A stretch of 63,068 nucleotides of DNA, filler included. It is 6 parts of 6 records of this genome, joined end to end, with 100 filler letters (N's around TTAATTAATTAA, not from the genome) between each part and the next. Parts side by side here need not be neighbours in the genome. Positions count along the whole stretch, not along the records: positions 35,341 to 50,846 come from SRR31156797_16277; 5 more parts are not named here. One strand, written 5' to 3'. The notes beneath the pieces are model-generated. The model did not search any database and was not told the origin of the DNA. It saw only the letters and a program-made list of their open reading frames with translations. Positions within the stretch are counted from its first letter, which is position 1. The number at the start of each line of letters is the position of its first letter. Shown here piece by piece: positions 37,050 to 56,651 of the stretch. A program made the translations under genes and the position numbers.

Positions 37050-37910
37050 TTATACGGGGAGTCCTTTTGAGCGGCGATCCTCTTTCATCTTTTCAAGGAG
37101 TTCCGTGGGGACGTGAAGGCCTCCTTTTCCTTTGCCGAGTCTGATTTTTGGTTTGACTGAACCATGAAAATCCGAGCCTCCGCTGATGAGCAGGCCGAGG
37201 CGTTCGGCCATTTCTTTATATGCTTTTACTTCGGCGTCGCTGTGTTCTGTATAATAGACTTCTATGCCGTCCAGACCGAATTCCATGAGATCTTTAACTA
37301 CTTTTTCTGTGTCCTTAAGGTTGAGACCAAGGGCAAAGGGATGGGCGAGAATGGACGTTGCACCAATTTTATTGAGAATGGGAAATGCCTGCGCAGGCGT
37401 GAGCTTGCGTTTGGGAATATACGCCCGTCCATTGTCACCGAGCCAGACCTTGAATGCTTCGTCAACGGATGAAACCACGCCGAGTGCCATGAGTTCCTGC
37501 GCGAAGTGAGGGCGACCAATGGTCCCCTTGGCGCGGGCGGCAACATTTTCATAGGTGATGCTTATGCCCAAAGACCGGAGTTTTTCGACTATTTCGCGGT
37601 TGCGATTCTTGCGGCCTTCCTGCACCCAGTCAAAGGCTTCCTGAAGTTCTGTAGCACTTTCAGGCAACCACAGAGCAACCACATGAATCCAGCCAGCGCC
37701 TTCTGGGGACTCAAGGCTTAATTCAGCACCCGGAATAACTTCGATGCCGTATTTTTTGCCTGCGGCCAAAGCTTCTTGAACGCCTTGAAAGGTGTCATGA
37801 TCAGTGATGGCAATGGCATCAAGACCGGACTCCTTGGCCAATTTGATCAATTCGGTAGGGGACAAAGTGCCGTCCGAAGCCGTGGAATGGGAGTGTAAAT
37901 CTATGCTCAT
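37050..37910 (-). CDS. PHP domain phosphoesterase (TrpH/YciV-like)
   Basis: DLHSHS, ITDHD, GRPH, LAHP and GGSDFHG motifs. Confidence 0.93.
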   Translation of the reverse strand: MSIDLHSHSTASDGTLSPTELIKLAKESGLDAIAITDHDTFQGVQEALAAGKKYGIEVIPGAELSLESPEGAGWIHVVALWLPESATELQEAFDWVQEGRKNRNREIVEKLRSLGISITYENVAARAKGTIGRPHFAQELMALGVVSSVDEAFKVWLGDNGRAYIPKRKLTPAQAFPILNKIGATSILAHPFALGLNLKDTEKVVKDLMEFGLDGIEVYYTEHSDAEVKAYKEMAERLGLLISGGSDFHGSVKPKIRLGKGKGGLHVPTELLEKMKEDRRSKGLPV

Positions 37911-39259: not shown

Positions 39260-39925
39260 TTAGATGGCCCAGGTTTCTATATCGATGAGGCCGAGCCGGG
39301 CCGCGTAACGAACAAGTTCCACCGTACTCTTCAGGCCAAGCTTTTTCATCAGGTTGGTGCGGTGATTTTCAACGGTTTTAGGACTGATGAAGAGCTTTTC
39401 CGCCACACCTTTAGCAGTCAGTCCTTCCGCCAACATGCGCATGACTTCCTGTTCTCGGGGGGTCAGGGTGGAGTATGGATCGCTGCTGCCGCCGGGGCTG
39501 TCTGGCTTTGATTGCAAAAGTTTGAATACCACTTCTTGAGACAGTGCGTTGTCCAGAAAAAGCTCTCCTGCGGCGACGGTATCCAGTCCTTTGATGAGTT
39601 GGGACGAAGCAGATTCCTTGATCATGTATCCAGTAGCTCCGGCCCGGAAAGCTTCCACTATATAGTCGGCCTCGGAGTGCATGGAGATGATGATGAACTG
39701 TGTGTCCGGCAAAGAGGATTTGAGTTCCCGGATCATCTGGACACCATTCTTTTCAGGCATGGAAATATCCACCAGCATGATGTCCGGCTGACGTTCCTTG
39801 GCGATGGCAATGCCTTCCCTGCCATTCCCGGCTTCAGCACAAACCGTGTACTTATTGTCCCGGTTGACGATGGTTTTGAGACCTTCCCTGAACAGGGGGT
39901 GGTCATCAACAATCATGATATTCAT
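39260..39925 (-). CDS. NarL/LuxR family response regulator
   Basis: VDDHPLFREG, DISMP, LTPREQEV and LFISPKTVENHRTNLMKKL. Confidence 0.96.
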   Translation of the reverse strand: MNIMIVDDHPLFREGLKTIVNRDNKYTVCAEAGNGREGIAIAKERQPDIMLVDISMPEKNGVQMIRELKSSLPDTQFIIISMHSEADYIVEAFRAGATGYMIKESASSQLIKGLDTVAAGELFLDNALSQEVVFKLLQSKPDSPGGSSDPYSTLTPREQEVMRMLAEGLTAKGVAEKLFISPKTVENHRTNLMKKLGLKSTVELVRYAARLGLIDIETWAI

Positions 39926-39926
39926 A

Positions 39927-42365
39927 TTATGTGTGTCTCCTGGAATGGTGTGTAGGCAGTCGGAAGATTATGCGGGTTCCTGTTCCGACCAGTGATTGGA
40001 TTTCCATGGAGCCGCCGATCAGGCGCGCCCGTTCCTCCATGCTACGCAATCCCATGCGTTTTTCAGTCAAGGCTTTTGCCTGGCGTTCCCGAACTTTGAA
40101 TCCCTGCCCATTGTCTTCAATGCGAATAAAGATGTCAGGGTGGCTTCTTACGAGGCGGATAGTAGCCTTATCCGCGTAAGCGTGGCGTATAATGTTCCTG
40201 ACTGCTTCCTGAATCATTCGATAAATGTTGATTTCACTGTCGAAATCCATACTGAAGTCTTCGACACCTGTGGCGACGAAGTCCACTGCAAAACCGTGCT
40301 TATTACCTGCTTCGAGACAAAGGTTTTGCAAAGATTTTACCAGACCGAGCTGGTCCAGTGCAGGTGGTCGTAGTCCATATGCGATATCCCGTACCGAGGC
40401 GACGACTTCTTTGAGAATGTCTGTCACGGATTCGCCCCGTTTGCGAAGTTTTTCGTCCACACATGAGTGGTCGTCAAACAACGTTTCCATTTTTAACATA
40501 ATGGAAGAAATATTTTGAGCGACGTTGTCGTGAAGATCCCGGGCAATGCGCTGCCGTTCGTCTTCTTGGATGCGAATGAGTTCTTGGGTCAAAGCAACAA
40601 TGCGTTGTTGTGCTTTGCCTTGTTCTTCAGCCTGTGCCTTGAGTTGAATATTGGCTTCGGAAAGTTCTGCGGTCCTTTTTGAAATGCGGTCTTCCATTTG
40701 GGCATGGGTGGATAACAGCTCTCGTTCCAGTGTTTTGTAGTGTGTGATATCTGTGAGAATTTCCAGTTGAGCCTCTTGGCCTTCCCACATAATGGGTTTG
40801 ACCGAGATCGTGAGCCATTTGATATCGCCATGATGTGTTATGACCCTGAATGTGGCAAATCCTTCGTTTTCTTTGCCCGCATACATGCTTCTGAATTGCT
40901 CATTGATGAAGGCTTTGTCTTCTGGGTGAACCATTTCAAGGGGATGAATTTGTTCAAGTTCTTCGGTTGAGAGACCAAATATTTCACTCATGCTTTCATT
41001 AATATATTTGATTTCTCGATTTTGAATGACGACGACACCTTCCTGAGAATTTTCCGCCAGTACACGGTATCGTTCTTCGGAATCCATAAGAGCCTGCTCT
41101 GCTCGCTTCCGTGGGGTGACGTCCAGCAATGACACGATGACGCGAGCCAGAGAATCTTTGTACTCAGGGGGAACAAAGAAGTGGACTACCACCCAAATTG
41201 TTTCCCCTTCAAGCGTACGGTTAGTAATCTCTCCGCAGTATTCACACCCGCCGGAGGCGAGAAGAATCATTTCTTCTGTGAAAGCGGCCATGGAGCTTTC
41301 TGTCAGGACTTTTTCCAAGTTGCCGAACAGGTCTTCTTTGGATTTTGCAGCTAACAGATCCAACGTGGCCTTGTTCACATCCACGACGGTCACCAGCGTG
41401 GCGCATTTGGCTAAGGCGTCCGGGTTGTCGTAGAAATATTGTCGAAAGTCGGTGATTCCGTCTTTTTTGAGAGCGTCGAAATATGTTTTAAGGCGGGAAA
41501 GGTCTTCTTCCCAGAGAGAGATGGGAGAGTCCTCAAAGAGTGTGCGATATCGGAATTCTCGCTCAAACAACGCGGCTTCAGTCTGTTTGCGAAGGGTAAT
41601 ATCGCGGGAAACACCTTGGTATCCTCCGGGTTTGCCGTTCTCGGTAAAGAGTCGTCTGACGGCGGTTTCAACCCAGATAGTTCCGCCCTTGCCGTGATAA
41701 TGTTCCATTTCCAGCCGATTAATGTGATCGAAGTCGCCTTGTGCTTCGGCTGTGGCGCGGTCTTGTTCGGCTTTTTTGAGGCTTTTATGAGATTCGGGTA
41801 GTGTGATTTGGAGCAGGGATAACCCTTTAAGTTCTTCGAGAGCATAGCCCCAAACATCTTGAACGGATGGAGTGGCATACGTGAAGTTGTATGCATCATC
41901 CATTGTCCAAATGACATCGGTGATATTTTCGGCGAGTAGACGGAATTTGTCTTCACTGACTTTGAGAGCTTTGGCGGTTTGGCTGCAGGCCAGATTGTCC
42001 TGCATAATGGAAATGACATTGGTCAGGTTGCCGGATGCGTCGAGTACAGGATCAAATCGTCCCCAGACCAGAATGACTTCATTGTTTGCTTGACGGATGA
42101 AGTATTCGCCTTCCCAGCTTTGTCCGGCATTGAGTGCTGGTCGGATATGCGTTGCATACAACGCTCGGGTTTCTTCCGGAAGCGCGTTTTCCTGAGGCAG
42201 GGAAAACATTTCGGGGATCGTATATCCAAAAAAAACGGCAAAAGCCTTGTTCACGAAGATCGGTTTCAGATCTGCGGTCCGAATAGCCATGGCCACTCCC
42301 GAAGCTTCGAGAACATGCTCGAATAATTGAGGGCTTGGCTTAAGAAATTCGTGATTCCGATTCAT
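39927..42365 (-). CDS. Cytoplasmic multi-PAS sensor histidine kinase (HisKA_3 type)
   Basis: Four PAS/PAC-like repeats; QEDERQRIARDLHD, QEAVRN, EDNGQGF, GLRSMEERA. Confidence 0.94.
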   Translation of the reverse strand: MNRNHEFLKPSPQLFEHVLEASGVAMAIRTADLKPIFVNKAFAVFFGYTIPEMFSLPQENALPEETRALYATHIRPALNAGQSWEGEYFIRQANNEVILVWGRFDPVLDASGNLTNVISIMQDNLACSQTAKALKVSEDKFRLLAENITDVIWTMDDAYNFTYATPSVQDVWGYALEELKGLSLLQITLPESHKSLKKAEQDRATAEAQGDFDHINRLEMEHYHGKGGTIWVETAVRRLFTENGKPGGYQGVSRDITLRKQTEAALFEREFRYRTLFEDSPISLWEEDLSRLKTYFDALKKDGITDFRQYFYDNPDALAKCATLVTVVDVNKATLDLLAAKSKEDLFGNLEKVLTESSMAAFTEEMILLASGGCEYCGEITNRTLEGETIWVVVHFFVPPEYKDSLARVIVSLLDVTPRKRAEQALMDSEERYRVLAENSQEGVVVIQNREIKYINESMSEIFGLSTEELEQIHPLEMVHPEDKAFINEQFRSMYAGKENEGFATFRVITHHGDIKWLTISVKPIMWEGQEAQLEILTDITHYKTLERELLSTHAQMEDRISKRTAELSEANIQLKAQAEEQGKAQQRIVALTQELIRIQEDERQRIARDLHDNVAQNISSIMLKMETLFDDHSCVDEKLRKRGESVTDILKEVVASVRDIAYGLRPPALDQLGLVKSLQNLCLEAGNKHGFAVDFVATGVEDFSMDFDSEINIYRMIQEAVRNIIRHAYADKATIRLVRSHPDIFIRIEDNGQGFKVRERQAKALTEKRMGLRSMEERARLIGGSMEIQSLVGTGTRIIFRLPTHHSRRHT

Positions 42366-42495: not shown

Positions 42496-43953
42496 CTATT
42501 TTTTCAGGTTGTGAATCCAAGAGGCCGCAAGCGAGGCGTGGTCGTCGGCGACCTGTTCTACCCAGGCGGATTGTTCTCCTTCCGCATCAAGCACGTCCTG
42601 GCTTGCCTTGAGCGGGGCGACAATGATTGAAAATGGACGCTTGTCCTTGTCGCGGAAGGCTTCAAGAGTGCGGATCAGTGATGCCCATTTTGCGGTGTTT
42701 CTGCCTGTAATCAGCCACAAGACAGGGATTTTCAATTCAGCAAGGGTTTTGTGATTTGGGATATCATTGGTCTTGACGGAATCTGTAAGAACACAAACCA
42801 AAAAAGCGGGCTTGCTTTGACTTGCGGTCATGATTGCGGCGGGCGCCCCCAGACCATTGCCCCATATTCCGACATGGTTTGCATCGATTTCCTTACGATT
42901 GGCAAAGTAATCCAGCGCGGCAGCTGTATCCTGTACCAGATCTTCCGTGGTGCCAGGAGTCGGCTCTTCATTCATGCAACCGCGAGAGATAAAGTGCAGG
43001 GTGGCAAGATCATGCATGGACAAAGTACGGGTAAAGCCTTGCACCAGCCCCGGATTGACGCAGCCAGGGCCATGGATGACGATGACCCCTTCATGGCCTT
43101 CGCCATAGGGTGGTCTGGATATCCCCGCTTCAATTTTCTCGGCTGGACCGGGAATTGTGACTTCTTCTTCCCGGACATGAACCTTGCGTGGATAATGAGC
43201 GATGCGGTCATCGTCGGTCATGAGAATGAATCGTTCGATACGGTCGTTCTTGGCCAAAAAGGTGACTGAACCTGTGACCGGTTCGTCTGCGTAGACTGAC
43301 GGTCCGATGGTGTACACATATTTACCGAAGGATTGCTTAAGGCGTCGCAGGGTCTTGTTTTTTGAGTCGTAGATCAGGAATCGCCCGTATTTGGTGTTGC
43401 GAGCGTCGATGATGGAAACGACCCGATCGTCCTTGGTGCGGAACTGGCCTGAAAATTCTTTAGTTGAATAGGAAAAATAGTCTCCCATCATGGCGCGGCC
43501 AAAACGCGCTTCGTGTCCACGGTGGACAGTAAAATCTTTGCGAATGACAATTTTTTTCGGTTTGCCGTCTTCTTCAAGCTCCTCTTCCGGTGGAAGTGTC
43601 TTGTTGGGACTGATTTCGATCACATCGGGTTCCGGCTCAGGTTCCGGCTCGGGAGCGAGCTCCGGTTCTGGCGGTGGCGGGAGTTCGTTTGCAAGAACCA
43701 CGGTCTTGTCCATGGGCAGAGGAGCTGCCATGGCTGGTTCTTCAGGGGCGGGCATTTCCGCCATGGGGTCTGGAGCGGGAATCTTCTGCGGCTCCGGCAT
43801 GGGCATGATCGGTTGCGGTTCTTCTACCTCGGTCAGATCCACTTGCATAATATCCTCGGGTAGCAACGGTTCAAGGTCGACCGATTGCAGCAATGCCACC
43901 ACCAGAATGGCATGAAAGAGGATAGAGAGGAACCAACTCAGAGCGTGTCGCAT
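42496..43953 (-). CDS. TonB/TolA-like membrane anchor and Pro/Glu linker fused to a degenerate alpha/beta hydrolase fold
   Basis: TM helix with SILFH (SxxxH); EPEPEP linker; REEEVTI...VIVIHGPG...DTAAALDYF...IDANHVGIWGNGLG...IPVLW; lies 6 nt after tolR. Confidence 0.75.
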   Translation of the reverse strand: MRHALSWFLSILFHAILVVALLQSVDLEPLLPEDIMQVDLTEVEEPQPIMPMPEPQKIPAPDPMAEMPAPEEPAMAAPLPMDKTVVLANELPPPPEPELAPEPEPEPEPDVIEISPNKTLPPEEELEEDGKPKKIVIRKDFTVHRGHEARFGRAMMGDYFSYSTKEFSGQFRTKDDRVVSIIDARNTKYGRFLIYDSKNKTLRRLKQSFGKYVYTIGPSVYADEPVTGSVTFLAKNDRIERFILMTDDDRIAHYPRKVHVREEEVTIPGPAEKIEAGISRPPYGEGHEGVIVIHGPGCVNPGLVQGFTRTLSMHDLATLHFISRGCMNEEPTPGTTEDLVQDTAAALDYFANRKEIDANHVGIWGNGLGAPAAIMTASQSKPAFLVCVLTDSVKTNDIPNHKTLAELKIPVLWLITGRNTAKWASLIRTLEAFRDKDKRPFSIIVAPLKASQDVLDAEGEQSAWVEQVADDHASLAASWIHNLKK

Positions 43954-43959
43954 AGAAGT

Positions 43960-44382
43960 TTACTTTTTATCTTTTTTTAGATTTGTGGACTTTTCCGCCA
44001 CAATGCCCAGCCGGTCAATGCCGGCACCTTTGATTTCGCCCATGATCATGACCACGGTGCCATAAGCCACTTCCTTGTCGGCACGAAGGAACAGTTGCTT
44101 TTTCTGTTTCGCGACCAGTCGTTTCAGATGATCTTGCAATTCATCCAGAGCCACCTGATATTCGTCAAGAAATAAGGTGCCGTCTTTTTTCACCGACAAG
44201 ACCAGATGTTCGGAATCCTGTGGCAGATTTTTGACCGTTTTGGTCACAGGAAGATCCACTTCGACTCCTTGAGTCATGAGCGGGGCCGTGACCATAAAAA
44301 TGATCAGCAACACCAGCATCACATCCACAAAGGGCGTGACATTGATTTCGTTGAGGAAGCCTCCGCCGGTCTTGATTGCCAT
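43960..44382 (-). CDS. tolR: TolR/ExbD family protein
   Basis: EINVTPFVDVMLVLLIIFMVTAP, LFLRADKEVAYG. Confidence 0.93.
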   Translation of the reverse strand: MAIKTGGGFLNEINVTPFVDVMLVLLIIFMVTAPLMTQGVEVDLPVTKTVKNLPQDSEHLVLSVKKDGTLFLDEYQVALDELQDHLKRLVAKQKKQLFLRADKEVAYGTVVMIMGEIKGAGIDRLGIVAEKSTNLKKDKK

Positions 44383-44391
44383 GGGCTGCTC

Positions 44392-45096
44392 CTATCTCTT
44401 TTCCATTTTGGAGGCCCACGTTATTTCACGTTCAGCCCGATTCAGAAAGGCTCCCGCGAAATCGATCATGCCGGTTTCAACTTCACCGAGTTTGCCGAGG
44501 AAGTAATTATAGAAAATGGTGGCCGGGATAGCGACCAGAAGCCCGATGGCTGTGGCAATAAGCGCTTCAGAAATACCGGGAGCCACGGTTGCCAGAGCAG
44601 CTGACTGGGCCAGCCCGATAGAGTGAAAAGAATGCATTATGCCCCAAACCGTACCGAACAGGCCGATGAATGGCGCTGCGTTGGCACAGGTGGCGAGGAA
44701 GGGGAGGTTGCGTGTTAATACACGCATTTCCTTGGTTATACCTTGTTTGAGTACACGACGCAGAGTGTCTTTGACGAGCAGGCGTTTTCGCTCCCGGTTG
44801 ACCTCCGCTTTTTCCAGTAGCCGGAATTCCTGCACCGCCAAGGTCGAGACACGGGCCAGAGGAGAATGGTCTTTATCTCCTAAACTTTTGAGGCCGCTGG
44901 TCAAGTCTTGAGCCTCCATGAAGGCGTCATATCCCTGCATGACTTTTTTTCGAGCTGAGCCAATGGTGAAGAATTTGAAAAAAATGATGGTCCAGCTCCA
45001 CACTGACATCAGGGCGAGAAAAATCATAACCATTTTTACGGCCAGAGTTGCTCCTGTCAGGAGAGTCAGCATGTCGCTTTCAGGTAAAAAATTCAT
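44392..45096 (-). CDS. tolQ: TolQ/ExbB (MotA family) proton channel protein
   Basis: APFIGLFGTVWGIMHSF, VAPGISEALIATAIGLLVAIPA; start placed at ATG 45096 (AGGT RBS). Confidence 0.93.
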   Translation of the reverse strand: MNFLPESDMLTLLTGATLAVKMVMIFLALMSVWSWTIIFFKFFTIGSARKKVMQGYDAFMEAQDLTSGLKSLGDKDHSPLARVSTLAVQEFRLLEKAEVNRERKRLLVKDTLRRVLKQGITKEMRVLTRNLPFLATCANAAPFIGLFGTVWGIMHSFHSIGLAQSAALATVAPGISEALIATAIGLLVAIPATIFYNYFLGKLGEVETGMIDFAGAFLNRAEREITWASKMEKR

Positions 45097-45372
45097 GGTG
45101 GCACCTATGGAGATTAGTGGTCGATGTTCACTTTTTGTGAACCTTGCTGTGTGTGTAAACCTCGTGACTAGAGAAAGCAAGGGGTAGTTCGACTGGAAGA
45201 ACTGTCTTTTCAGACGGTTGCAATTTGTAGTCGGCACATGCTTTTGACCATATATGATGTGTGAAGCGATGATATTTATTTGAAAAAACTTGTCCAGAAG
45301 ATCTGTTGAGCGTATGAATCATGGGTAAATATTTGATAAAGAGCATGTTGTGTTGGATATGCGGAGGCAAAT

Positions 45373-48243
45373 TTGAAGCTGTTGGTCTTGGCCGGGAAAA
45401 ATGTGGAGTCGGCTTTCATTACCCCTATAGTGCAGGGATATGAATACTCATTGGTTCATCTGGCATCTGTCTCGCGCGGTGTACGTCGGTTAGAGAAAGA
45501 AGATGCAGATTGTGTTCTTCTTGTTCCCGACAAAGGAGATACCACGTGGACACGGGCTGTTCAGCGTATTCGTAAGGAGTATGGTGTCCATGTCATCGTT
45601 GTGACGGATGAAGGGGATGAGGATAAAGCCCGTTCATTAGGGCTTTTTGATTTTTTTTCTCGTGCACAGGCTATACCGGAAAATATGGCCCGAAGCCTTC
45701 GGCATCTGGAAAGCCGCATGGCATTGGAAAGGCAACTGTTCAAGAAACGTTTCATGCACGAGTGGATGGAAGAGACAGACCGTTTTGGCCATTGGGAAAT
45801 GGATAGTCGGAACCGGGTGAAATGGTCGAGAGGCTTCCGTCGGATTATGGAACGTGGCTGTCATTCTCTTACTGAAGATTTCGATTCGATTCGGGCTTGT
45901 GTTCACCCTGACGATGTTGAGGTTTTTGATCGAGCCAATGAAGCGACCTTTGAACAAGGCTGGCCGCTTGATTTTGAATACCGGACTTTGGGCAAAGATA
46001 ACACGATCAACTATCTGCATGCTAACCGGGAAGTCGAACTTGATGATGCCGGGAATCTTCGGCGGGCTTACGGCATGGTACGAGATGTTTCCTTGCAAAA
46101 GGAACTGGAAGAGATGCTATTCCGTAGGGATGCTATTTTGCAGGTTTTAACTTCTTTTGCGGGTCGGTTTTTGCGTAAGGCGGATTGGGAAGAAGGAATT
46201 GGTAACGCGCTTGATGAGCTGGGTAAAGCTGCTGATATCACGAGAGTTTTTCTTTTTAGCAAGAGTGATGAAGGTTCCTCGGAGGAAACCCTGTCGTTGA
46301 ATCATGAATGGGTGGCTGATGGTTTCCCGAGTATTGTAGGAAGGCCGGAATTCATCAATCAGAGTTTTTCTCCGCACTATGATTCGTGGCGTATCCCCTT
46401 GCTCAGGCGCAAGATTATTTGTGGTCACGTCAAAGATTTTCGCAAAGGAGAACGTGGTTTTTTTGAGGCGACTGGAGCAAAGTCCGTCATGATTGTTCCC
46501 GTGTTTGCCGGGAATACATGGTGGGGGTTCTTGGGGTTTTCCGAACATCGTTCGGAGAGAGATTGGTTGCCCGTGGAAATCGAATCCTTGACCCTTGCGG
46601 CCAACCTTTTTGGTTCAGCCATTCATTATGGCCGTATGGGAGAAAAGTTGGTCTCCGCAAATCGATCTGCGGAAGAGGCTTCGGCGGTTGCGCTTGAAGC
46701 AAATTTGGCTAAGTCCATGTTCTTGGCGAACATGAGTCATGAGATCAGGACCCCCATTAGTGGAATTCTTGGCATGGCGGAAATGGTTGTCACAACTGGA
46801 CTCACGGATGAACAACGGGAACATATGGATATGATCCGTGATGCCGCTGGTTCATTGCTGCATATTGTCAATGACATTCTCGATATCTCAAAGATTGAAG
46901 CGGGCAAGATGGAACTCAAGCCTGTGGATTTCGATTTTCGGTCTGCGCTTGAGACAAGTGTCCGGTCTTTTGGGCCGCAGGCTGATGTGAATAACATTGC
47001 TTTTCGGTATTCCGTAAGCAAGGACATCCCGACCGTACTCAATGGTGATTCTGATCGGTTGGGGCAGATTCTATGGAACCTTTTGGGTAATGCTCTCAAA
47101 TTTACTGAACGAGGATTGGTCGAGTTGACGGTCAGTGTGACCCGCCAAGAAGCGGGCCGCGTTTGTCTGTTGTTTAAGGTTCGGGATACCGGTGCAGGTA
47201 TTTCTGAAGATAAACTTGAAAGCATTTTTGATAGTTTCACTCAGGCGGACAGTTCCCTGCGGAAGAAACATCAGGGGACAGGGTTGGGGCTGACAATTTC
47301 CCGACAATTGGTAAACATGATGGGTGGGGAAATCGGTGTTGAAAGCGAACAGGGTTTTGGCTCAACTTTCCATTTTACAGCCTGGTTTGGTGTCGCGGAA
47401 GAACAGGAGATGGAAGAAGTGCGTACGCCTTCGACTCCCAAAACGTTGCATTTGAATATATTGTTGGCTGAAGACAATCCGCTGAACCGGAAGTATTTGA
47501 CTCATTTCCTTTCCATGTTTGGGCATACCATTACCACCGCTGAGAATGGGATCGAGGCGTTGAGCGTCCTTGAGACACAAGGGAGGGCCGTTGATCTTGT
47601 TCTTATGGATGTTCAGATGCCAGAAATGAGTGGCATTGAGGCTACTCAGGCCATACGGGAATCAGATGGCAAATTGTATGATCGATCAATTCCGATTATT
47701 GCCCTGACAGCGTATGCCATGAAGGGTGACAAGGAACGGATGCTGGATTCCGGTATGAACGATTACGTGAGCAAGCCTGTTGATATGCACGAACTTTCAG
47801 ATGCAATTGTTCGTAGTATGGGCACTCGGCACCCTCAAGGAATAACGGCTGGGACCTCTTCCACGTCATCAACCGGGAAAAAAGTTGGGGAAGAGGTCAT
47901 CCCGATCAAACTCGATATGCAAGCCTTGATTGACAGATTTGAGGGCAACATGGCTTTGCTCAAGGATATTCTTGATCTGTTTGTGGTGGAGGCGGAAGAG
48001 AAAATTGTCAATCTTGATAAAGCTACAGAAAATCGTGATGCAAAGGTGATGGGGGCTTCTTTGCATTCGATCACGAATATTGCCAGTCACGTGTTGGCGA
48101 TGGAGTTGGTTAAGAAATCAAGAGAGTTGGAAAAACGTTGTTATCTTGGTCGATTGGATTCCGTTATAGAGGAACTTGGACCTTTGAAGTCTAGTTTTAA
48201 AGAGTTGGTCAAAGTTGTCAGTGCGGAAGCGGTAAAACTGTAA
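45373..48243 (+). CDS. Hybrid sensor kinase (degenerate REC, PAS, GAF, HisKA, HATPase, REC, HPt)
   Basis: GGAGG RBS with TTG start; FLANMSHEIRTP, NALKFT, DTGAGI, GTGLGL, MDVQMP; HPt-like LHSITN. Confidence 0.93.
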   Translation: MKLLVLAGKNVESAFITPIVQGYEYSLVHLASVSRGVRRLEKEDADCVLLVPDKGDTTWTRAVQRIRKEYGVHVIVVTDEGDEDKARSLGLFDFFSRAQAIPENMARSLRHLESRMALERQLFKKRFMHEWMEETDRFGHWEMDSRNRVKWSRGFRRIMERGCHSLTEDFDSIRACVHPDDVEVFDRANEATFEQGWPLDFEYRTLGKDNTINYLHANREVELDDAGNLRRAYGMVRDVSLQKELEEMLFRRDAILQVLTSFAGRFLRKADWEEGIGNALDELGKAADITRVFLFSKSDEGSSEETLSLNHEWVADGFPSIVGRPEFINQSFSPHYDSWRIPLLRRKIICGHVKDFRKGERGFFEATGAKSVMIVPVFAGNTWWGFLGFSEHRSERDWLPVEIESLTLAANLFGSAIHYGRMGEKLVSANRSAEEASAVALEANLAKSMFLANMSHEIRTPISGILGMAEMVVTTGLTDEQREHMDMIRDAAGSLLHIVNDILDISKIEAGKMELKPVDFDFRSALETSVRSFGPQADVNNIAFRYSVSKDIPTVLNGDSDRLGQILWNLLGNALKFTERGLVELTVSVTRQEAGRVCLLFKVRDTGAGISEDKLESIFDSFTQADSSLRKKHQGTGLGLTISRQLVNMMGGEIGVESEQGFGSTFHFTAWFGVAEEQEMEEVRTPSTPKTLHLNILLAEDNPLNRKYLTHFLSMFGHTITTAENGIEALSVLETQGRAVDLVLMDVQMPEMSGIEATQAIRESDGKLYDRSIPIIALTAYAMKGDKERMLDSGMNDYVSKPVDMHELSDAIVRSMGTRHPQGITAGTSSTSSTGKKVGEEVIPIKLDMQALIDRFEGNMALLKDILDLFVVEAEEKIVNLDKATENRDAKVMGASLHSITNIASHVLAMELVKKSRELEKRCYLGRLDSVIEELGPLKSSFKELVKVVSAEAVKL

Positions 48244-50846: not shown

Positions 50847-50946
50847 NNNNNNNNNNNNNNNNNNNNNNNNNNNNNNNNNNNNNNNNNNNNTTAATTAATT
50901 AANNNNNNNNNNNNNNNNNNNNNNNNNNNNNNNNNNNNNNNNNNNN
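50847..50946. other. Artificial contig spacer
   Basis: 44 N + TTAATTAATTAA + 44 N. Confidence 0.99.
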
Positions 50947-53808
50947 GGCAAAGGAGTCAAGGGTCCAGTGCCAGTCGGAAAGCCGTTCTCCCGTGGGCTG
51001 GCCCTCGTCATTCACGGATTTGGCCTGGCCTGTCCCGTCCGTTGAGATGGTGAACACATCTCCGTCAAACAACGTGCCGTCGGAAAACACCAGGGTCATG
51101 CCGTCCACATCCACCTCAATGGGCGCCTCCGGCGTAATGGGGGGATCGGACCCCTCGATCTCAAAACTGCCCGAGCCATTGCTGTTCTTCCAGTTGATCA
51201 CAAGCGGCGGCTCCCCGGGTCCCGGCAGATGCCCCACCTTTCCGCCGGATTCCACCGTAAAGGTGTAGGTGTCGTTGATGCTGTTGCCCTTGCCCCTGAT
51301 CCTGAAATCCAGGGGATCGACTTTGCCCGATTCATCGGTATTGATGGTCATGGTGTTGCCCGCCACAAGGGAACCGGCACCGACATTAAAGGACAGAGTC
51401 TTCACGCCCCCCTCCTTGATCTCCACCCTGCCGTCGTCCGGCACCTCGATAAGCCCTTCCTCTCCGGTCAGGAACCCTTCCGCATCCAGCTTTTCCCACT
51501 TAATCACCGGGGTTTTGTCATACAACGTGGAGGAGGTACTGTTCCGGATAGGTACACCCGGCGAAATCTCTTTACCCGATTCGAGCAAATCATTGACCGG
51601 CTGCTTGGTGGTGCTTCCCGTGCCGGTGGAGACCCTGAGAGTTGCGTTATTACTTCCGGCTTCGGTAAATTTGGTAATCTCAATGGGCTCTTCAAGCATC
51701 TTGCTCTTCACAACGGATACGGACGCACCGGTGACAAAAACAGTATAATCGGACCCAAGTCCTGCCGCATCAATTGCCGTCTTAAGATTATTTGCATACA
51801 CCTCATCGCTTAAACCGGCAGCACCTGTCGCATAGTTAACCGTGGTCCCGTCAATATCAAAGGAAATTGGATCACCATTTAGATTGCCAAATCCGCCTTT
51901 TCCACCCAAGGTGATGATGGAGCTACCAGATACGGCATTCCCGTTGGCAAAGATCTCCCCGTTGTTGGGTCCTGACTTACTGCTGGCAAAGGACATGCCC
52001 GGATCGTGGAGCATGGTGACCGTGCCAGTGATGACAGCGGCCTTGTTCGGGCCTGCCGCGGATGTTTCCACAATGGTTTGACCTTCAAAATCGATGGTAT
52101 GAACCCCGCCGGTGATATCAAGGTCCTGGACCCCGATATTCCTGCCGGACTTGCTGGCCACGGTCAATCCGCTTGCGGAAAAATCCTCGTCGGAATTGGT
52201 CTCGTTGATTTTTTGGGCGGCATCCCTTAAGGAATCTTCAAACTGTTTCTGATAGGTACCCACGGTGGAATCCACGGTAAAGGTCTGCTCCTGCTCGATA
52301 CCGTCAACCACCAGGGTATACTTGACCACATCGCCATCGGCCGGGTCGGCACCAAGGCCAAATTCGGCTGTTGTCTTGGAGGCATGGGCCTCTACCCCAG
52401 GAATCTTATTCAACTCCTCGCTGATGGAGGCGGCCGATCTGAAGGCGTCTCCGCCGTTATCCTTTACATTGATCTTCTTGGTGCCAATGGGACTGCCGTA
52501 GATGGTGAGGGTCTGATCGGCAATGGAATTGCCCAGGGCGGCGGAGACACTGGCCCCGGTCTGCACCTCCCCAAGGCGGGAACCGTCGAACTCGGCCACT
52601 TCCCGGTCCCCGACGGTGGCGCCCTCCACAACGGTCATCTTATACCGGGCCTGCTGGCTCCCCAGGGCGGTTCCCTCCCAGGCGGAGAGTTTCGCTTCCG
52701 ATATGCCCATGTCCACTTCAGCGGACCGGTAGGCCGCGGACGTGCCTGACTGATCCTTGATCCACATCTTAAAATCTTTGGCGTAGTCGATACGGTCTCC
52801 AAAGGCAAGGCTTGACATTAGCCTGCTGGGATCGGACTCATAGGTACCGGTCACCGGTTCCGAAAAATAGTTCAGCCCGGCGCCCTGGGAATGCTGATAA
52901 TTCATTGCCCAGATCATATTTTCCGCAAGCACATCCAGGTCGGCCTGGTATTTGGGAATCACCTCATCCCGGATATCGAGCCACCCCCCGAGCTTTCCGC
53001 CCTGAATCTTATCGGTGATATCGATTTTCGAGCCGTAGGACCCCTGCCACATGACCTGGTTCTCAACCATGGACACCTCATAATTATCCACCCCGTTCAC
53101 CAGGGAGAATCCATTGGCGGCATTGACGATGATGGCGCCGTTGGATTGTTCAAAGGTGTCGATATCCATAAGGCTTGCCAGCTCGTCCACCAGGGCGTTT
53201 CGCTGGTCCCGCTGATCATTGGCCGTTCGGTTCAGCTCCGTGCCGGTGATCTCCCGGTTCATGTCGGCAATCTGCCGGGTGATGGAATTGATCTGTCCGA
53301 GGCTTGAGGAGATTTCATCATTCAGGTCCGTGGTGAGGCGCATGAGATCCGCGTTTACGGAATTATAGCGTTCTGCAAGGTTTTTGGCGTTATCAACTAC
53401 CGCCACCCGCTCGGAAGAGCCCAGGGGATTGATGGACAGGTTGCTCCAGGAATTCCAGAACTTGGAGGTGAGGCTGTTGATGCTGCTGTCCGACGACTCG
53501 TCGAAATAGCTCTCCACGATGTTCAGATAGGCCTCGGCCTCTTCAAATGCGGCCTGGGAGGCTTTTGCGTCGGTGAGCCGGTTTTCAAGGAGCTGGTCCA
53601 CCTGCTGTTTGATCTGATCGACGCCCACGCCCGTACCGAACAGAAAACCGGAATAGAGCGCCGGTCTGTTGGCCCTGTGATCGGCCAGCTGGCGGCTGTA
53701 GTCCGGGTTGTTGACATTGGCGATGTTGTGGCCCGTAACATTAAGGCTGTACTGCTGGGCGGCAATGGCGCCCTGGGCGATGTTCAAGGTTGAGGAAATT
53801 CCTGACAT
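50947..53808 (-). CDS. flgK: Flagellar hook-associated protein FlgK, very long, 3'-truncated
   Basis: GHNIANVNNPDYSRQ, GTGV, DQRDQRNALVDELA, GGKLGG; follows flgN. Confidence 0.93.
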
Positions 53809-53810
53809 GA

Positions 53811-54314
53811 CTACACCTCTGCCTGTATAAAATGGTTGGGTTGTTTACTCTCGCAGAGCTTACCGGGGATCTCATACTGCTCAGGGCCCGTCAACGTGAC
53901 AATGGTGGAGAGCACATCGTGAATCACCTCCAGATATTCCCCCACATAGCGTTGATTTTCCGAGGCAAGCACCTGTATCTCATCCTTTTGCCCATCAATG
54001 GCAACCCGTGCGGCTTCAACACCGGCTTTCTCCCTGGGCGATCCAGGAATCAGGCGCACCAATTGGGACAGACGAAACGAATTCAGATCCATGCCATGCT
54101 CCATGTCATGCTCGTCAAGCACATTGATCATCCGCCCTCTCAAGGCTTCGATCGCTTTGACGATCTCATTCTTTTCCCCAGTGACCTGCCACAGGGTATC
54201 GACATCCATGGCGATGATCACCTCTCGTTCCCGTTTTAAAAGCTCTATCAGTTGCTCATAACACGTACGCTTCTCTTGAAGCAGGTCTTTAATCTTATCG
54301 GCAAATTTTTCCAT
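53811..54314 (-). CDS. flgN: Flagellar export chaperone FlgN
   Basis: Helical protein (YEQLIELLKRER...KNEIV...ENQRY) directly before flgK; ATG 54314 has a GGGAG RBS. Confidence 0.8.
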   Translation of the reverse strand: MEKFADKIKDLLQEKRTCYEQLIELLKREREVIIAMDVDTLWQVTGEKNEIVKAIEALRGRMINVLDEHDMEHGMDLNSFRLSQLVRLIPGSPREKAGVEAARVAIDGQKDEIQVLASENQRYVGEYLEVIHDVLSTIVTLTGPEQYEIPGKLCESKQPNHFIQAEV

Positions 54315-54337
54315 GTCAGCTCCCATTTTATTGTTTT

Positions 54338-54364
54338 CTATCGGCATCAACGGATTTCACCTGA
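54338..54364 (-). promoter_or_regulatory. Sigma-28 (FliA) promoter for flgN-flgK
   Basis: TCAG-N15-GCCGATAG on the minus strand. Confidence 0.7.
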
Positions 54365-54442
54365 AATTTAAATCAAAAACCTTGGTTGACCGTGGGTGAC
54401 CGGGAATTTTTTTCCTCCCCAAATGCCGTTATGTTACAAGAC

Positions 54443-54458
54443 AGCAACATCCATGCCA
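54443..54458 (-). promoter_or_regulatory. Sigma-54 promoter upstream of flgN
   Basis: TGGCAT-GGATG-TTGCT on the minus strand. Confidence 0.7.
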
Positions 54459-54466
54459 TCGACTAT

Positions 54467-54772
54467 CTACTTTTCTGAATCCTCCAGCTCCCTGTAGAAA
54501 AAATCCGCGATACCCACCCCCCTGCCGGAAGCGGCAAGCTTATCGGCCAGGTGCTGGTCATACATGGATTTGTAAATGTCCATGCCTTGCCCGTTCCCAA
54601 ACAGGCCGTCCCCGGGCAGGGTCTGCCGCATGGATTTCAGCATGGAGGAAAGAAAGATCGCCTCAAACCCCTGGCAGGCTTCCTTCAGCTTCTGTTTATC
54701 ATTGTTTCCGGCTTGGTTTCCCTTTACCTGATGAACCCGTGCGGACGAAAGGGCCTGGTCGATTGCATCCAT
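54467..54772 (-). CDS. flgJ: FlgJ rod-binding domain protein (no muramidase domain)
   Basis: LKEACQGFEAIFLSSMLKSMR...MYDQHLA...GIAD. Confidence 0.9.
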   Translation of the reverse strand: MDAIDQALSSARVHQVKGNQAGNNDKQKLKEACQGFEAIFLSSMLKSMRQTLPGDGLFGNGQGMDIYKSMYDQHLADKLAASGRGVGIADFFYRELEDSEK

Positions 54773-54792
54773 TTATAACTCCTTTGCTATTA

Positions 54793-55926: not shown

Positions 55927-55941
55927 AAGAACACTTCCTTT

Positions 55942-56643: not shown

Positions 56644-56651
56644 AATTTCTC

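What the first reader, a model, noticed from the sequence alone, without database searches (positions are those of the whole stretch)
42496..45096. TolQ-TolR motor coupled to a TonB/TolA-like protein ending in a catalytically dead alpha/beta hydrolase
Seen: a tight tolQ-tolR-orf3 operon. Orf3 has the SxxxH transmembrane motif and Pro/Glu spacer of TonB/TolA but no TonB/TolA C-terminal domain. It carries instead a beta-rich domain and a hydrolase fold in which the nucleophile elbow reads GNGLG (no Ser), the acid position reads ITGRN, and no catalytic His motif is evident. No tolB, pal or TonB-dependent receptor is adjacent. Known: SxxxH couples TonB/TolA to the proton motor. Inference: a PMF-driven periplasmic machine using a pseudoenzyme as its binding or pulling head, with an unknown target. 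I do not know of a description of this architecture.
Basis: partly seen in the sequence, partly recalled or inferred. Interest (0 to 1): 0.75.

Follow-up and report, generated by a model that had tools for sequence, protein, structure and literature searches.

The report
TolA-like protein with dead hydrolase head
A sulfate-reducer carries a second copy of the proton-driven TolQ-TolR motor joined to a TolA-like membrane protein whose outer end is a small beta-barrel plus an inactive hydrolase domain, which looks like an undescribed variant of the machines that carry energy from the inner membrane across the cell envelope.

Summary
On the minus strand lie tolQ (44392-45096), tolR (43960-44382) and orf3 (42496-43953), 9 and 6 nt apart. 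Orf3 has a TolA-like N-terminus: S10-x3-H14-x6-L21, then a 'VDL' box, homologous to the genus's own TolA (hhalign E 7.5e-12). A Pro/Glu linker follows, then a DUF3471-like eight-stranded beta-barrel and a capless alpha/beta-hydrolase fold. No homologue examined keeps the catalytic Ser or His (0 of 35, 0 of 49).

The nearest genome has a separate tolQ-tolR-tolA-tolB-pal locus. The orf3 head occurs in 41 of 42 genomes of the genus. All 19 two-copy genomes examined have tolQR-tolA and tolQR-orf3. In 12 of them the two tolQR cassettes are 95-100% identical in DNA (gene conversion). In the window's clade they have diverged at silent sites (77-81% DNA, 94-96% protein).

In other Desulfovibrionaceae genera a short form, anchor plus barrel only, follows a different, divergent tolQR. 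The barrel, not the pseudoenzyme, is therefore the conserved head.

Best reading: a proton-motive-force-coupled TolA paralogue of unknown target, a new variant beside the published vWA transducers. Function is inferred, not shown.

The parts
45269..45296 (-). promoter-like site (TGGACA, 16 nt, TATCAT) about 170 nt upstream of tolQ, in the divergent region shared with the hybrid histidine kinase gene
   Evidence: Consensus scan, 10 of 12 positions. A pattern match only, not evidence of function.
44392..45096 (-). tolQ (234 aa), second copy of the stator pentamer gene
   Evidence: MotA_ExbB E 2.9e-36; TIGR02796 219.7 bits against a cut-off of 221. 94% protein and 77% DNA identity to the tol-pal-linked TolQ of G001. 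Nested in the genus's canonical TolQ clade.
43960..44382 (-). tolR (140 aa), stator dimer gene; the Asp20 of the transmembrane helix is kept
   Evidence: TIGR02801 132.1 bits, above the cut-off of 127.3. 96% protein and 81% DNA identity to canonical TolR. D20 invariant in 26 of 26 rows.
42496..43953 (-). orf3 (485 aa): TolA-like anchor, linker, beta-barrel and pseudo-hydrolase
43882..43950 (-). N-terminal transmembrane helix (residues 2-24) with S10-x3-H14-x6-L21
   Evidence: Predicted helix 2-24, pLDDT 85-93. S10 in 34 of 35, H14 in 35 of 35, L21 in 34 of 35. hhalign against the genus's TolA: probability 97.5%, E 7.5e-12.
43825..43851 (-). [quoted passage not shown]
   Evidence: L40 invariant in 35 of 35. 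Aligned by hhalign to TolA 'VYTVDLVSL'. Position matches the review's description of the D-/R-box (PMC12905483, passages seen). Binding to TolR was not tested.
43552..43824 (-). Pro/Glu-rich disordered linker (residues 44-134) holding the conserved motifs PLPMDKTVVL (78-87) and ISPNK (114-118; 43600-43614)
   Evidence: Residues 44-135: 29% Pro, 21% Glu. pLDDT below 50. ISPxK in 26 of 35 orf3 homologues and 20 of 20 TolA of the genus; about 1 expected in shuffles.
43144..43551 (-). conserved beta-barrel domain (residues 135-270), DUF3471/lipocalin-like; the core head of the family
   Evidence: Domain model pLDDT 79. VIA-align: Z 10.5, rmsd 1.8 A over 76 residues to 1ei5 residues 343-419, then other C-terminal domains of PBP-fold enzymes. 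The profile reaches DUF3471-bearing hydrolases. 77% mean identity within the family.
42499..43143 (-). alpha/beta-hydrolase-like domain (residues 271-485) without triad or cap; elbow GNGLG at 42847-42861, acid loop ITGRNTA at 42691-42711, His position APLKASQ at 42598-42618
   Evidence: Foldseek E about 1e-10 to S9 peptidases and dienelactone hydrolases. PDB profile alignments put the Ser at G367. Comparison with active relatives. Counts. Coordinates checked.

Best explanation
Orf3 is a paralogue of TolA in which the TolA/TonB C-terminal domain has been replaced by a two-domain module: an eight-stranded DUF3471-like barrel plus an alpha/beta-hydrolase fold. The module comes from a family of secreted serine hydrolases and has since lost its cap and its catalytic Ser and His; the acid position is no longer conserved.

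Proposed mechanism:
- The N-terminal helix (S10, H14, L21) docks on the rim of a TolQ5-TolR2 stator, as TolA does.
- The 'VDL' box about 10 residues after the helix engages the TolR periplasmic dimer.
- The roughly 90-residue Pro/Glu linker spans the periplasm.
- The barrel, helped in this genus by the pseudo-hydrolase, binds an unknown envelope target.
- Proton flow through the stator then pulls on or repositions that target.

The second tolQR cassette supplies stators for this transducer. The cassette is kept identical or nearly identical in protein to the Tol-Pal one, so one type of stator drives two different transducers.

Shown: the architecture, the homology of the N-terminus to TolA, the loss of the triad, the conservation, the operon linkage and the evolution of the cassette.
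Inferred: docking on TolQR, energisation, and the head acting as a binding module.
Unknown: the target.
For: 1. N-terminus. S10 is kept in 34 of 35 homologues, H14 in 35 of 35, L21 in 34 of 35 and L40 in 35 of 35. Profile-profile comparison with the genus's own TolA gives probability 97.5% and E 7.5e-12 over residues 1-46 against 1-49. A further shared ISPxK motif lies at about residue 100-120 in 26 of 35 orf3 and 20 of 20 TolA, against about 1 in shuffles. There is a weak hit to solved TonB, 9ddo_F, at E 0.064.

2. Linkage to stators arose twice.
- In the genus, all 19 two-copy genomes examined carry tolQR-tolA and tolQR-orf3.
- In other genera, 8 of 20 loci fetched with 4-kb flanks have a short form directly behind a different tolQR. 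That tolQR is only 33-39% (whole-length matches, 7 of the 8 loci) and 43-55% identical to the window's TolQ and TolR.
- That divergent tolQR forms its own clade: 6 of 7 rows, aLRT 100.
- The four such genomes checked also have a tolQ..tolB locus.

3. Both stator copies are under strong purifying selection. Between the paralogues, dN is 0.02-0.04 while pS is 0.73-0.83. TolR D20 is invariant in 26 of 26.

4. In 12 of 19 genomes the cassettes are 95-100% identical in DNA. In the 7 of those 12 pairs laid by blastn, the identical tract runs from about 10-20 nt before tolQ to the end of tolR and stops before gene 3.

5. The head is a fold used for binding, and it is dead as an enzyme. There is 0 Ser at position 367 and 0 His at position 451 in 35 and in 49 homologues. 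Active relatives keep GxSxG, GxD and H, and carry a cap of about 90-110 residues that orf3 lacks.

6. A precedent for SHLS-type anchors with a non-TonB head is published: the vWA type (PMC12204202, section 8, read).
Against: - No experiment or expression data was available.
- Docking of orf3 on TolQR or TolR was not tested here, because the complex prediction tool never ran.
- The last Ser of the Ser-3X-His-6X-Leu-3X-Ser motif is not in register. Position 25 is V/I; Ser or Thr sits at position 24 in 25 of 35.
- In at least five closed or nearly closed genomes of the genus (G121, G153, G193, G210, G213), orf3 lies more than 1 Mb from the only tolQ found at E <= 1e-40. A dedicated motor is therefore not required, and coupling there would need the Tol-Pal stator or another of the 6 to 10 MotA/ExbB-family matches per genome in the six genomes searched.
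- None of the 28 loci from the family search with 1.5-kb flanks, apart from G174, showed tolQ/tolR beside the gene.
- No partner or target is evident in the neighbourhood.
- The structural models are predictions (pLDDT 74 and 79). The best fold match of the barrel (Z 10.5) is only moderately above the tool's stated background of 7-8.
Confidence: 0.6

Rival explanations
1. Orf3 is a passive, membrane-anchored periplasmic binding protein or scaffold. Its TolA-like helix is a relic of descent from tolA, and its place behind tolQR is left over from a tolQRA duplication. It is not energised.
For: - Orf3 stands far from any tolQ in five closed or nearly closed genomes of the genus.
- Most loci of other genera lack an adjacent tolQR: 12 of 20 with 4-kb flanks and all 27 other-genome loci with 1.5-kb flanks.
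- The shared ISPxK motif and N-terminus fit descent from TolA.
Against: - A relic helix would not keep H14 in 35 of 35, S10 in 34 of 35 and L21 in 34 of 35 while the rest of the N-terminal 43 residues averages 48% identity.
- The SxxxH pattern also persists in distant genera.
- Linkage to two different tolQR lineages is hard to explain as a leftover.
- The orf3-linked tolQR is under strong purifying selection.
Confidence: 0.17
2. Orf3 is a modulator of Tol-Pal rather than a transducer with its own target. It competes with TolA for stators, or recruits and positions TolQR (for example at the division site or at peptidoglycan). The extra tolQR cassette compensates for the stators it occupies.
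For: - The stator proteins are identical or nearly identical to those of Tol-Pal, so mixed complexes are expected.
- Orf3 and TolA share the helix, the VDL box and ISPxK, that is, the same docking determinants.
- No separate target gene lies nearby.
Against: - A strongly conserved globular head (barrel at 77% mean identity) suggests a specific ligand.
- In other genera the short form has its own divergent tolQR, which argues for a separate machine.
Confidence: 0.15
3. The C-terminal domain is still an enzyme that uses non-canonical residues, for example the invariant Cys298 and Cys326. Orf3 would then be a membrane-tethered periplasmic hydrolase.
For: - C298 and C326 are invariant in 35 of 35, and kept in 44 and 45 of 49 in the wider set.
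- Sources label homologues 'alpha/beta hydrolase' or 'dienelactone hydrolase'.
Against: - The nucleophile elbow holds Gly in 33 of 35 and never Ser or Cys. The His position never holds His. The acid position varies: D 10, E 6, N 7, K 8, S 2, R 1, H 1 of 35.
- The cap found in active relatives is missing.
- Short forms lack the domain entirely.
- Two invariant Cys in a periplasmic domain are more simply read as a disulfide (inference).
Confidence: 0.05

Closest known systems
TolA of the Tol-Pal system (here the genus's own TolA, L016:6605-7477, with a TonB_2/TonB_C C-terminal domain)
   Same: N-terminal helix with S-x3-H, a 'VDL' box about 10 residues after it, a Pro-rich linker with ISPxK, and a position directly behind tolQ-tolR.
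   Different: No TolA_C/TonB_C domain, and no tolB, pal or cpoB downstream. The head is a barrel plus a pseudo-hydrolase. The canonical locus exists elsewhere in the nearest genome.
TonB (ExbB-ExbD-TonB)
   Same: Same three-part plan and the SHLS-type helix. Weak profile hit to solved TonB 9ddo_F, E 0.064, residues 8-124. A D-box-like strand at the same distance from the membrane (review PMC12905483, passages).
   Different: No TonB_C domain and no TonB-dependent receptor nearby. The stator is of the TolQR lineage, not ExbBD: the TolQ and TolR models score best.
[quoted passage not shown] 2025, PMC12204202, section 8, read)
   Same: A TolA/TonB-like helix with the SHLS motif, a disordered linker with a motor box, a globular C-terminal domain unrelated to TonB/TolA, synteny with tolQR-like genes, and unknown function.
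   Different: The head there is a von Willebrand A fold, found in Proteobacteria, the PVC group, Bacteroidetes and Rhodothermaeota. Here the head is a DUF3471-like barrel, with or without a dead alpha/beta hydrolase, and the named homologues are Desulfovibrionaceae. In that paper 'hydrolase' occurs once, in the TolB context, and 'Desulfo' not at all. Its supplements were not seen.
Secreted DUF3471 + alpha/beta-hydrolase enzymes (P0171, P0177, P0178, P0195, P0197, P0198, P0200)
   Same: Same order of the two domains. The barrel profile reaches them at E 2.9e-8 to 6e-4, in the region where P0171 matches Pfam DUF3471 at 33.2 bits against a cut-off of 29.3.
   Different: They start with a signal-peptide-like segment rather than a TolA-like anchor. 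P0171, P0177, P0195, P0197 and P0198 keep GxSxG, GxD and His, and all carry a cap of about 90-110 residues between strands 6 and 7.

Membership tests
TolA/TonB periplasmic force transducers | N-terminal transmembrane helix with Ser-3X-His-6X-Leu-3X-Ser (definition from PMC12905483, passages) | tested here: inconclusive
   S10, H14 and L21 are in register and kept in 34, 35 and 34 of 35. The last Ser is displaced: Ser or Thr at position 24 in 25 of 35, and V/I at position 25. The genus's own TolA also lacks the Leu in register (sequence).
TolA/TonB periplasmic force transducers | D-box / R-box strand 10-15 residues after the helix | tested here: met
   'IMQVDLTEV' at residues 35-43, L40 in 35 of 35, aligned to TolA 'VYTVDLVSL' by hhalign (E 7.5e-12). 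Only sequence likeness is met; binding to TolR was not tested.
TolA/TonB periplasmic force transducers | periplasm-spanning domain II (Pro-rich or helical) | tested here: met
   Residues 44-135 are 29% Pro and 21% Glu, with pLDDT below 50.
TolA/TonB periplasmic force transducers | C-terminal TonB_C/TolA_C domain that binds its target by strand addition | tested here: not met
   No TonB_C, TonB_2 or TolA_C match at E <= 0.1. The C-terminal 350 residues are accounted for by a barrel and an alpha/beta-hydrolase fold. The genus's TolA does match TonB_2 at E 2.9e-11.
TolA/TonB periplasmic force transducers | gene linked to exbBD or tolQR | tested here: met
   Met in the window and in all 19 two-copy genomes of the genus examined. 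A short form follows a divergent tolQR in 8 of 20 loci of other genera. Not linked in at least five closed or nearly closed genomes of the genus.
TolA/TonB periplasmic force transducers | PMF-dependent action through the stator | not testable with these tools
   Needs genetics or biochemistry.
catalytic alpha/beta hydrolases (S9/S15/S33/DLH-like) | alpha/beta-hydrolase fold | tested here: met
   Foldseek E 2e-11 to 1e-9 to S9 peptidases and dienelactone hydrolases. PDB profile hits down to E 3.7e-8.
catalytic alpha/beta hydrolases (S9/S15/S33/DLH-like) | nucleophile in a G-x-S/C-x-G elbow | tested here: not met
   The elbow reads GNGLG. Position 367 is Gly in 33 of 35, with 0 Ser or Cys in 35 and in 49.
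catalytic alpha/beta hydrolases (S9/S15/S33/DLH-like) | acid and His of the triad | tested here: not met
   The acid position 419 is N in the window and varies (D 10, E 6, N 7, K 8, S 2, R 1, H 1 of 35). The His position 451 holds 0 His in 35 and in 49. H472 is Y/F outside the genus.
TolQ / TolR stator | match to the TolQ and TolR models, and the proton-binding Asp in TolR | tested here: met
   TolR scores 132.1 bits against a cut-off of 127.3. TolQ scores 219.7 against 221, marginally under. TolR D20 is invariant in 26 of 26. Both are 94-96% identical to the tol-pal-linked pair of G001.
DUF3471 (PF11954) beta-barrel | match to the Pfam model | tested here: inconclusive
   The window's domain has no direct Pfam match even at E <= 1. 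Its family profile reaches proteins whose matched region is DUF3471 (P0171 at 33.2 bits, above 29.3). The fold matches the C-terminal barrels of PBP-fold enzymes at Z 9-10.5.

The most novel reading that the evidence does not exclude
Desulfovibrionaceae have a third kind of Tol/Ton-type envelope machine. A TolA-derived transducer carries a DUF3471-like barrel as its working head, joined in Pseudodesulfovibrio to a long-dead serine hydrolase. This transducer has recruited a TolQR stator at least twice independently. In Pseudodesulfovibrio the recruited cassette is held identical to the Tol-Pal stator by gene conversion, so one stator design powers two different pulling devices.
Probability: 0.45. 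Interest if true: 0.75.

Novelty: new variant of a known kind. Interest (0 to 1): 0.66.

Why it matters
Only two outputs of the ExbBD/TolQR class of proton-driven motors are understood: TonB-dependent import and Tol-Pal outer-membrane stabilisation. vWA-headed transducers were proposed in 2025 (PMC12204202).

A second, unrelated head on the same anchor would show that the TolA/TonB N-terminal module is a portable adaptor that can put different periplasmic domains under motor control. This one is conserved in nearly every genome of a genus and linked to stators twice over.

The system also gives a clean natural experiment on stator specificity. Two transducers share one stator sequence, kept identical by gene conversion in most species and by selection on the protein in the window's clade.

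It also documents a serine hydrolase turned into a non-catalytic module. The family is 'hypothetical' or 'alpha/beta hydrolase' in current annotation, which is misleading.

Tried and rejected
The tool was then declared unavailable. Nothing was folded.
- The window's own assembly is not held. G001, whose orf3 is 99% identical, served as proxy.
- Expression: no RNA holder was listed for the stretch.
- The ESM Atlas gave no usable hit for the barrel.
- Foldseek on the barrel alone gave no match at E <= 0.001; the best was 1ei5 at E 0.087.
- The idea that the duplication extended beyond tolQR was rejected. The PHP-domain genes near both loci share only 37% identity over 75 residues. The identical tract ends at tolR.
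- The first impression that only the window's small clade had the operon came from 7 sampled genomes. It was corrected by the genus-wide search.
- The weak NCBIfam hits to GltJ, SglT, RfaY and others were set aside. All lie far below their cut-offs, and the GltJ hit (residues 36-126) lies within the Pro-rich linker.
- H472 was considered as the catalytic His and rejected. It lies in the last helix and is Y/F outside the genus.
- MAFFT placed the acid-loop strand of active relatives in a gap. By eye, 'PVLWLITGRN' matches their 'P(I/V)L...G(R/E/K)D', so the acid position is taken as N419. This is my reading of the alignment, not a tool result.
- Literature:
  - 0 papers hold Pseudodesulfovibrio and TolQ together.
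  - 0 hold DUF3471 and TonB together.
  - The search on force transducer/TolQ/hydrolase/SHLS gave 5 papers, none describing this architecture by title or abstract.
  - The 10 papers listed for tolQ/gene conversion/concerted evolution hold no 'tolQ'.


Full report
**What is there.** The minus strand between 42496 and 45096 holds three abutting genes.
- tolQ runs from ATG 45096 to the stop at 44392 (234 aa).
- tolR starts at ATG 44382, 9 nt later, behind a GGAG, and stops at 43960 (140 aa).
- orf3 starts at ATG 43953, 6 nt after the tolR stop, and ends at 42496 (485 aa).

The longer GTG frame from 45237 is not supported, because homologous TolQ proteins start at the ATG. TolQ matches MotA_ExbB (E 2.9e-36) and the tolQ equivalog at 219.7 bits, against a cut-off of 221. 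TolR matches ExbD (E 3.8e-30) and the tolR equivalog at 132.1 bits, against a cut-off of 127.3. A promoter-like site lies about 170 nt upstream. No terminator-like site was found on the minus strand after orf3.

The neighbours are a divergent hybrid histidine kinase (45373-48243) and, 130 nt downstream on the same strand, a cytoplasmic PAS/HisKA_3 kinase and a LuxR-type regulator. None of the 17 neighbours scanned between 27.7 and 57.6 kb is TolB, Pal or a TonB-dependent receptor.

**Anatomy of orf3.** AlphaFold2 with 35 homologues (mean pLDDT 73.8) gives four parts:
- a helix at residues 2-24;
- a mostly disordered stretch at 31-162 (pLDDT under 50 over 31-53, 61-74 and 90-162);
- a beta domain at 169-267;
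- an alpha/beta fold at 274-485.

The helix reads S10-x3-H14-x6-L21. These residues are kept in 34, 35 and 34 of 35 homologues. The review PMC12905483 (passages seen) defines the motif as Ser-3X-His-6X-Leu-3X-Ser. The last Ser is out of register here: Ser or Thr sits at position 24 in 25 of 35.

About 10 residues after the helix lies 'IMQVDLTEV', with L40 invariant. The same review places the TonB D-box and TolA R-box 10-15 residues from the helix. A profile-profile comparison with 20 TolA proteins of the same genus aligns residues 1-46 to TolA 1-49 at probability 97.5% and E 7.5e-12. The alignment covers both the helix and the VDL box.

The linker (residues 44-135) is 29% Pro and 21% Glu. It holds an ISPxK motif at about residue 100-130 in 26 of 35 homologues. 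The same motif is present in 20 of 20 TolA of the genus, where about one is expected by chance. The N-terminal third of orf3 is therefore TolA-like by homology, not only by resemblance.

**The head.** The middle domain is the best conserved part, at 77% mean identity against 48% for each other part. It has no Pfam or NCBIfam match.

Folded alone with 44 diverse homologues (pLDDT 79.1), it gave no Foldseek match at E <= 0.001. VIA-align against 48,161 chains put the small barrel that follows PBP/beta-lactamase-fold enzymes on top:
- 1ei5 residues 343-419: Z 10.5, rmsd 1.8 A, 76 residues;
- 8fek: Z 10.1;
- 7spn: Z 9.8;
- 2qmi: Z 9.6;
- 4whi: Z 9.2;
- then a designed beta-barrel and PliC-type inhibitors.

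The tool's stated background is Z 7-8, so this is a moderate signal.

An independent result supports it. A profile of the domain, searched over 1.84 billion representatives, found only 111 proteins at E <= 0.001. The weaker hits are proteins of 400-550 residues with a signal-peptide-like start, the matched region, and then a genuine alpha/beta hydrolase (Hydrolase_4, Peptidase_S15/S9, DLH). In P0171 the matched region is Pfam DUF3471 at 33.2 bits, above the cut-off of 29.3.

The C-terminal domain of orf3 matches S9 peptidases and dienelactone hydrolases by Foldseek (E 2e-11 to 1e-9) and several solved hydrolases by profile (down to E 3.7e-8). Neither part has a TonB_C/TolA_C fold.

**A dead enzyme, and long dead.** In the PDB alignments the nucleophile Ser falls on G367 of GNGLG. 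Aligned with the active DUF3471-hydrolase relatives, orf3 lacks their cap of about 90-110 residues. It has S451 where they have the catalytic His, and N419 where, by my reading of 'PVLWLITGRN' against their 'P(I/V)L...G(R/E/K)D', they have the Asp.

Counts across homologues:
- Position 367 is never Ser or Cys: 0 of 35 in the genus-level set, 0 of 49 in the set that adds other genera.
- Position 451 is never His: 0 of 35, 0 of 49.
- Position 419 is D 10, E 6, N 7, K 8, S 2, R 1, H 1 of 35.

H472, which the alignment first suggested, lies in the last helix and is Y or F outside the genus.

Two cysteines, C298 and C326, are invariant in 35 of 35. I read them as a periplasmic disulfide, which is an inference.

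**Is there a canonical Tol-Pal?** The window's assembly is not held. G001 carries orf3 at 99% identity. It has a separate locus 1.6 Mb away with tolQ, tolR, a TolA with a TonB_2 domain, a TolB match (265 bits, under the equivalog cut-off of 343, but a PD40 propeller) and an OmpA-family Pal candidate.

The window's TolQ and TolR are 94% and 96% identical in protein to that pair, but only 77% and 81% in DNA. By Nei-Gojobori counting, dN is 0.02-0.04 and pS is 0.73-0.83, which is saturated. Both copies are therefore old and both are strongly constrained.

**Distribution in the genus.** The named homologues are almost all Pseudodesulfovibrio, labelled hypothetical, alpha/beta hydrolase or dienelactone hydrolase. 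The head is found in 41 of 42 genomes of the genus of G001; the miss, G211, is 99% complete.

At E <= 1e-40, 39 of 42 genomes have TolQ and 21 have two copies. I fetched 19 of those 21, leaving out G223 and G225, whose copies are cut by contig ends. In 19 of 19, one copy is tolQ-tolR-tolA and the other is tolQ-tolR-orf3.

DNA identity between the two cassettes within a genome:
- In 12 genomes it is 95-100%.
- In G233 and G236 it is 91-97%.
- In the window's clade (G001, G209, G174, G218) and in G219 it is 72-82%, with 85-96% protein identity.

In the seven genomes checked by blastn, the identical tract is 1.12-1.15 kb. It runs from about 10-20 nt before tolQ to the end of tolR and stops before the third gene.

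In a quick maximum-likelihood tree of 54 TolQ rows, paralogues pair by genome in 13 genomes (5 of them identical in protein). The five orf3-linked copies of the window's clade form their own group (aLRT 99) beside the canonical copies of the same species. All 43 rows of the genus form one clade (aLRT 92). The careful search did not finish, so supports are SH-aLRT only.

This is concerted evolution of a stator cassette by gene conversion, which has ceased in the window's clade.

Five closed or nearly closed genomes (G121, G153, G193, G210, G213) have a single TolQ more than 1 Mb from orf3. In G153 and G193, orf3 sits directly between the same hybrid kinase and PAS kinase genes as in the window. 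The cassette is therefore an insertion into a conserved neighbourhood.

**Beyond the genus.** A search of 201 Desulfovibrionaceae genomes found matches in 65, in 28 of 72 genera. In two of these genomes only the Pro-rich N-terminus matched. The SxxxH-type helix recurs in most of them, sometimes with Thr or Ala for the Ser.

Two architectures exist: long forms of about 440-550 residues, and short forms of about 217-265 residues that end after the barrel.

Of 20 loci fetched with 4-kb flanks, 8 have the gene directly behind tolQ-tolR: L048, L051, L052, L053, L054, L055, L061 and L062. Seven of these are short forms and one (L062) is a long form.

That tolQR belongs to another lineage:
- It is 33-39% (whole-length matches, 7 of the 8 loci) and 43-55% identical to the window's TolQ and TolR. 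The canonical, tolB-linked pairs of the same genomes are 53-64% and 49-67% identical.
- It scores under the cut-offs of the TolQ/TolR models.
- It forms a separate clade, 6 of 7 rows, aLRT 100; the seventh row is a very long branch.

The four such genomes checked also have a tolQ..tolB locus.

The barrel-headed, TolA-like protein has therefore been joined to a stator at least twice. One joining was to a divergent dedicated tolQR. The other, in Pseudodesulfovibrio, was to a copy of the Tol-Pal cassette. I regard this as the strongest argument available here that the protein works with such a motor.

**Mechanism proposed.**
- Shown: the architecture, the homology of the anchor to TolA, the loss of catalysis, the conservation, the linkage and the cassette evolution.
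- Inferred: the helix docks on TolQ as the TolA helix does in the solved complexes described in PMC12905483; the VDL box binds the TolR dimer; the linker crosses the periplasm; the barrel, with the former hydrolase pocket in this genus, binds a target on which the motor acts.
- Unknown: the target. No candidate partner is encoded nearby.

**Rivals.** The rivals are a passive anchored binding protein, a modulator that competes with TolA for stators, and a non-canonical enzyme. They are weighed in their own sections.

**Comparison with the literature.** Williams-Jones et al. 2025 (PMC12204202; outline, term search and section 8 read) describe TolA/TonB-like proteins with an SHLS helix, a motor box and a vWA head beside tolQR-like genes. 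They call them a new class of force transducers of unknown function. That paper does not mention this architecture in its main text: 'hydrolase' occurs once, in the TolB context, and 'Desulfo' does not occur. Its supplements were not seen and could list such loci.

Searches for Pseudodesulfovibrio with TolQ, and for DUF3471 with TonB, found no paper. A search on force transducer/TolQ/hydrolase/SHLS found five, none on this architecture by title or abstract.

I therefore file the finding as a new variant of a known kind.

**Limits.**
- No expression data: no RNA holder was listed.
- No access to model coordinates, so distances in the former active site and between the cysteines were not measured.
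- G001 stands in for the window's own genome.
- The genomes are samples of their groups, so 'not found' means not found in those searched.

Noticed in passing
window 43960-45096, and L067-L102 (19 genomes of the genus): The tolQ-tolR cassette exists twice per genome. In 12 of 19 genomes it is 95-100% identical in DNA, over a tract that ends exactly at tolR in the 7 pairs laid by blastn. In the window's clade the copies are saturated at silent sites but 94-96% identical in protein. This is concerted evolution that has stopped in one clade.
   Followed up: yes
window 43600-43614 (ISPNK), and TolA of the genus (alignment A5, about residue 100): An ISPxK motif sits in the middle of the linker of both orf3 (26 of 35) and the genus's TolA (20 of 20), where about 1 is expected by chance. 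Variants of it also appear in short forms of other genera. Its role is unknown.
   Followed up: partly
window 43693-43722 (orf3 residues 78-87, PLPMDKTVVL): A second conserved island lies inside the disordered linker (P80, T84 and L87 in at least 90% of 35). It has a short predicted strand at residues 84-86. It could be another docking strand.
   Followed up: no
window 43060-43062 and 42976-42978 (Cys298, Cys326): Two cysteines in the loops after strands 3 and 4 of the hydrolase-like fold are invariant in 35 of 35, and kept in 44 and 45 of 49 in the wider set. A disulfide is likely, though distances could not be measured.
   Followed up: partly
G217, G221, G223, G225, G227 (draft genomes of the genus; places): In several draft assemblies the contig that bears orf3 starts within a few hundred bases of the gene's start, and the TolQ matches lie at contig ends. 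This is as expected if the repeated cassette broke the assembly. The count of 21 two-copy genomes of 42 is therefore probably a lower bound.
   Followed up: no
window 39260-42365 and 45373-48243; L019, L020: The hybrid PAS-GAF kinase upstream (divergent) and the PAS/HisKA_3 kinase plus LuxR regulator downstream flank orf3. This also holds in the two genomes without the cassette that were checked for both flanks (G153, G193), which hints at a regulatory link.
   Followed up: partly
window 50899-57620 and 32064-34454: A flagellar gene block (FlgK, FlgN, FlgI, FlgH, FlgA) and a FapA-family gene lie near the operon. The window is also rich in two-component genes.
   Followed up: no
window 37050-37910 and L016:8765-9580: A PHP-domain gene lies near both tolQR loci, but the two proteins share only 37% identity over 75 residues. 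The duplication therefore did not include it.
   Followed up: yes
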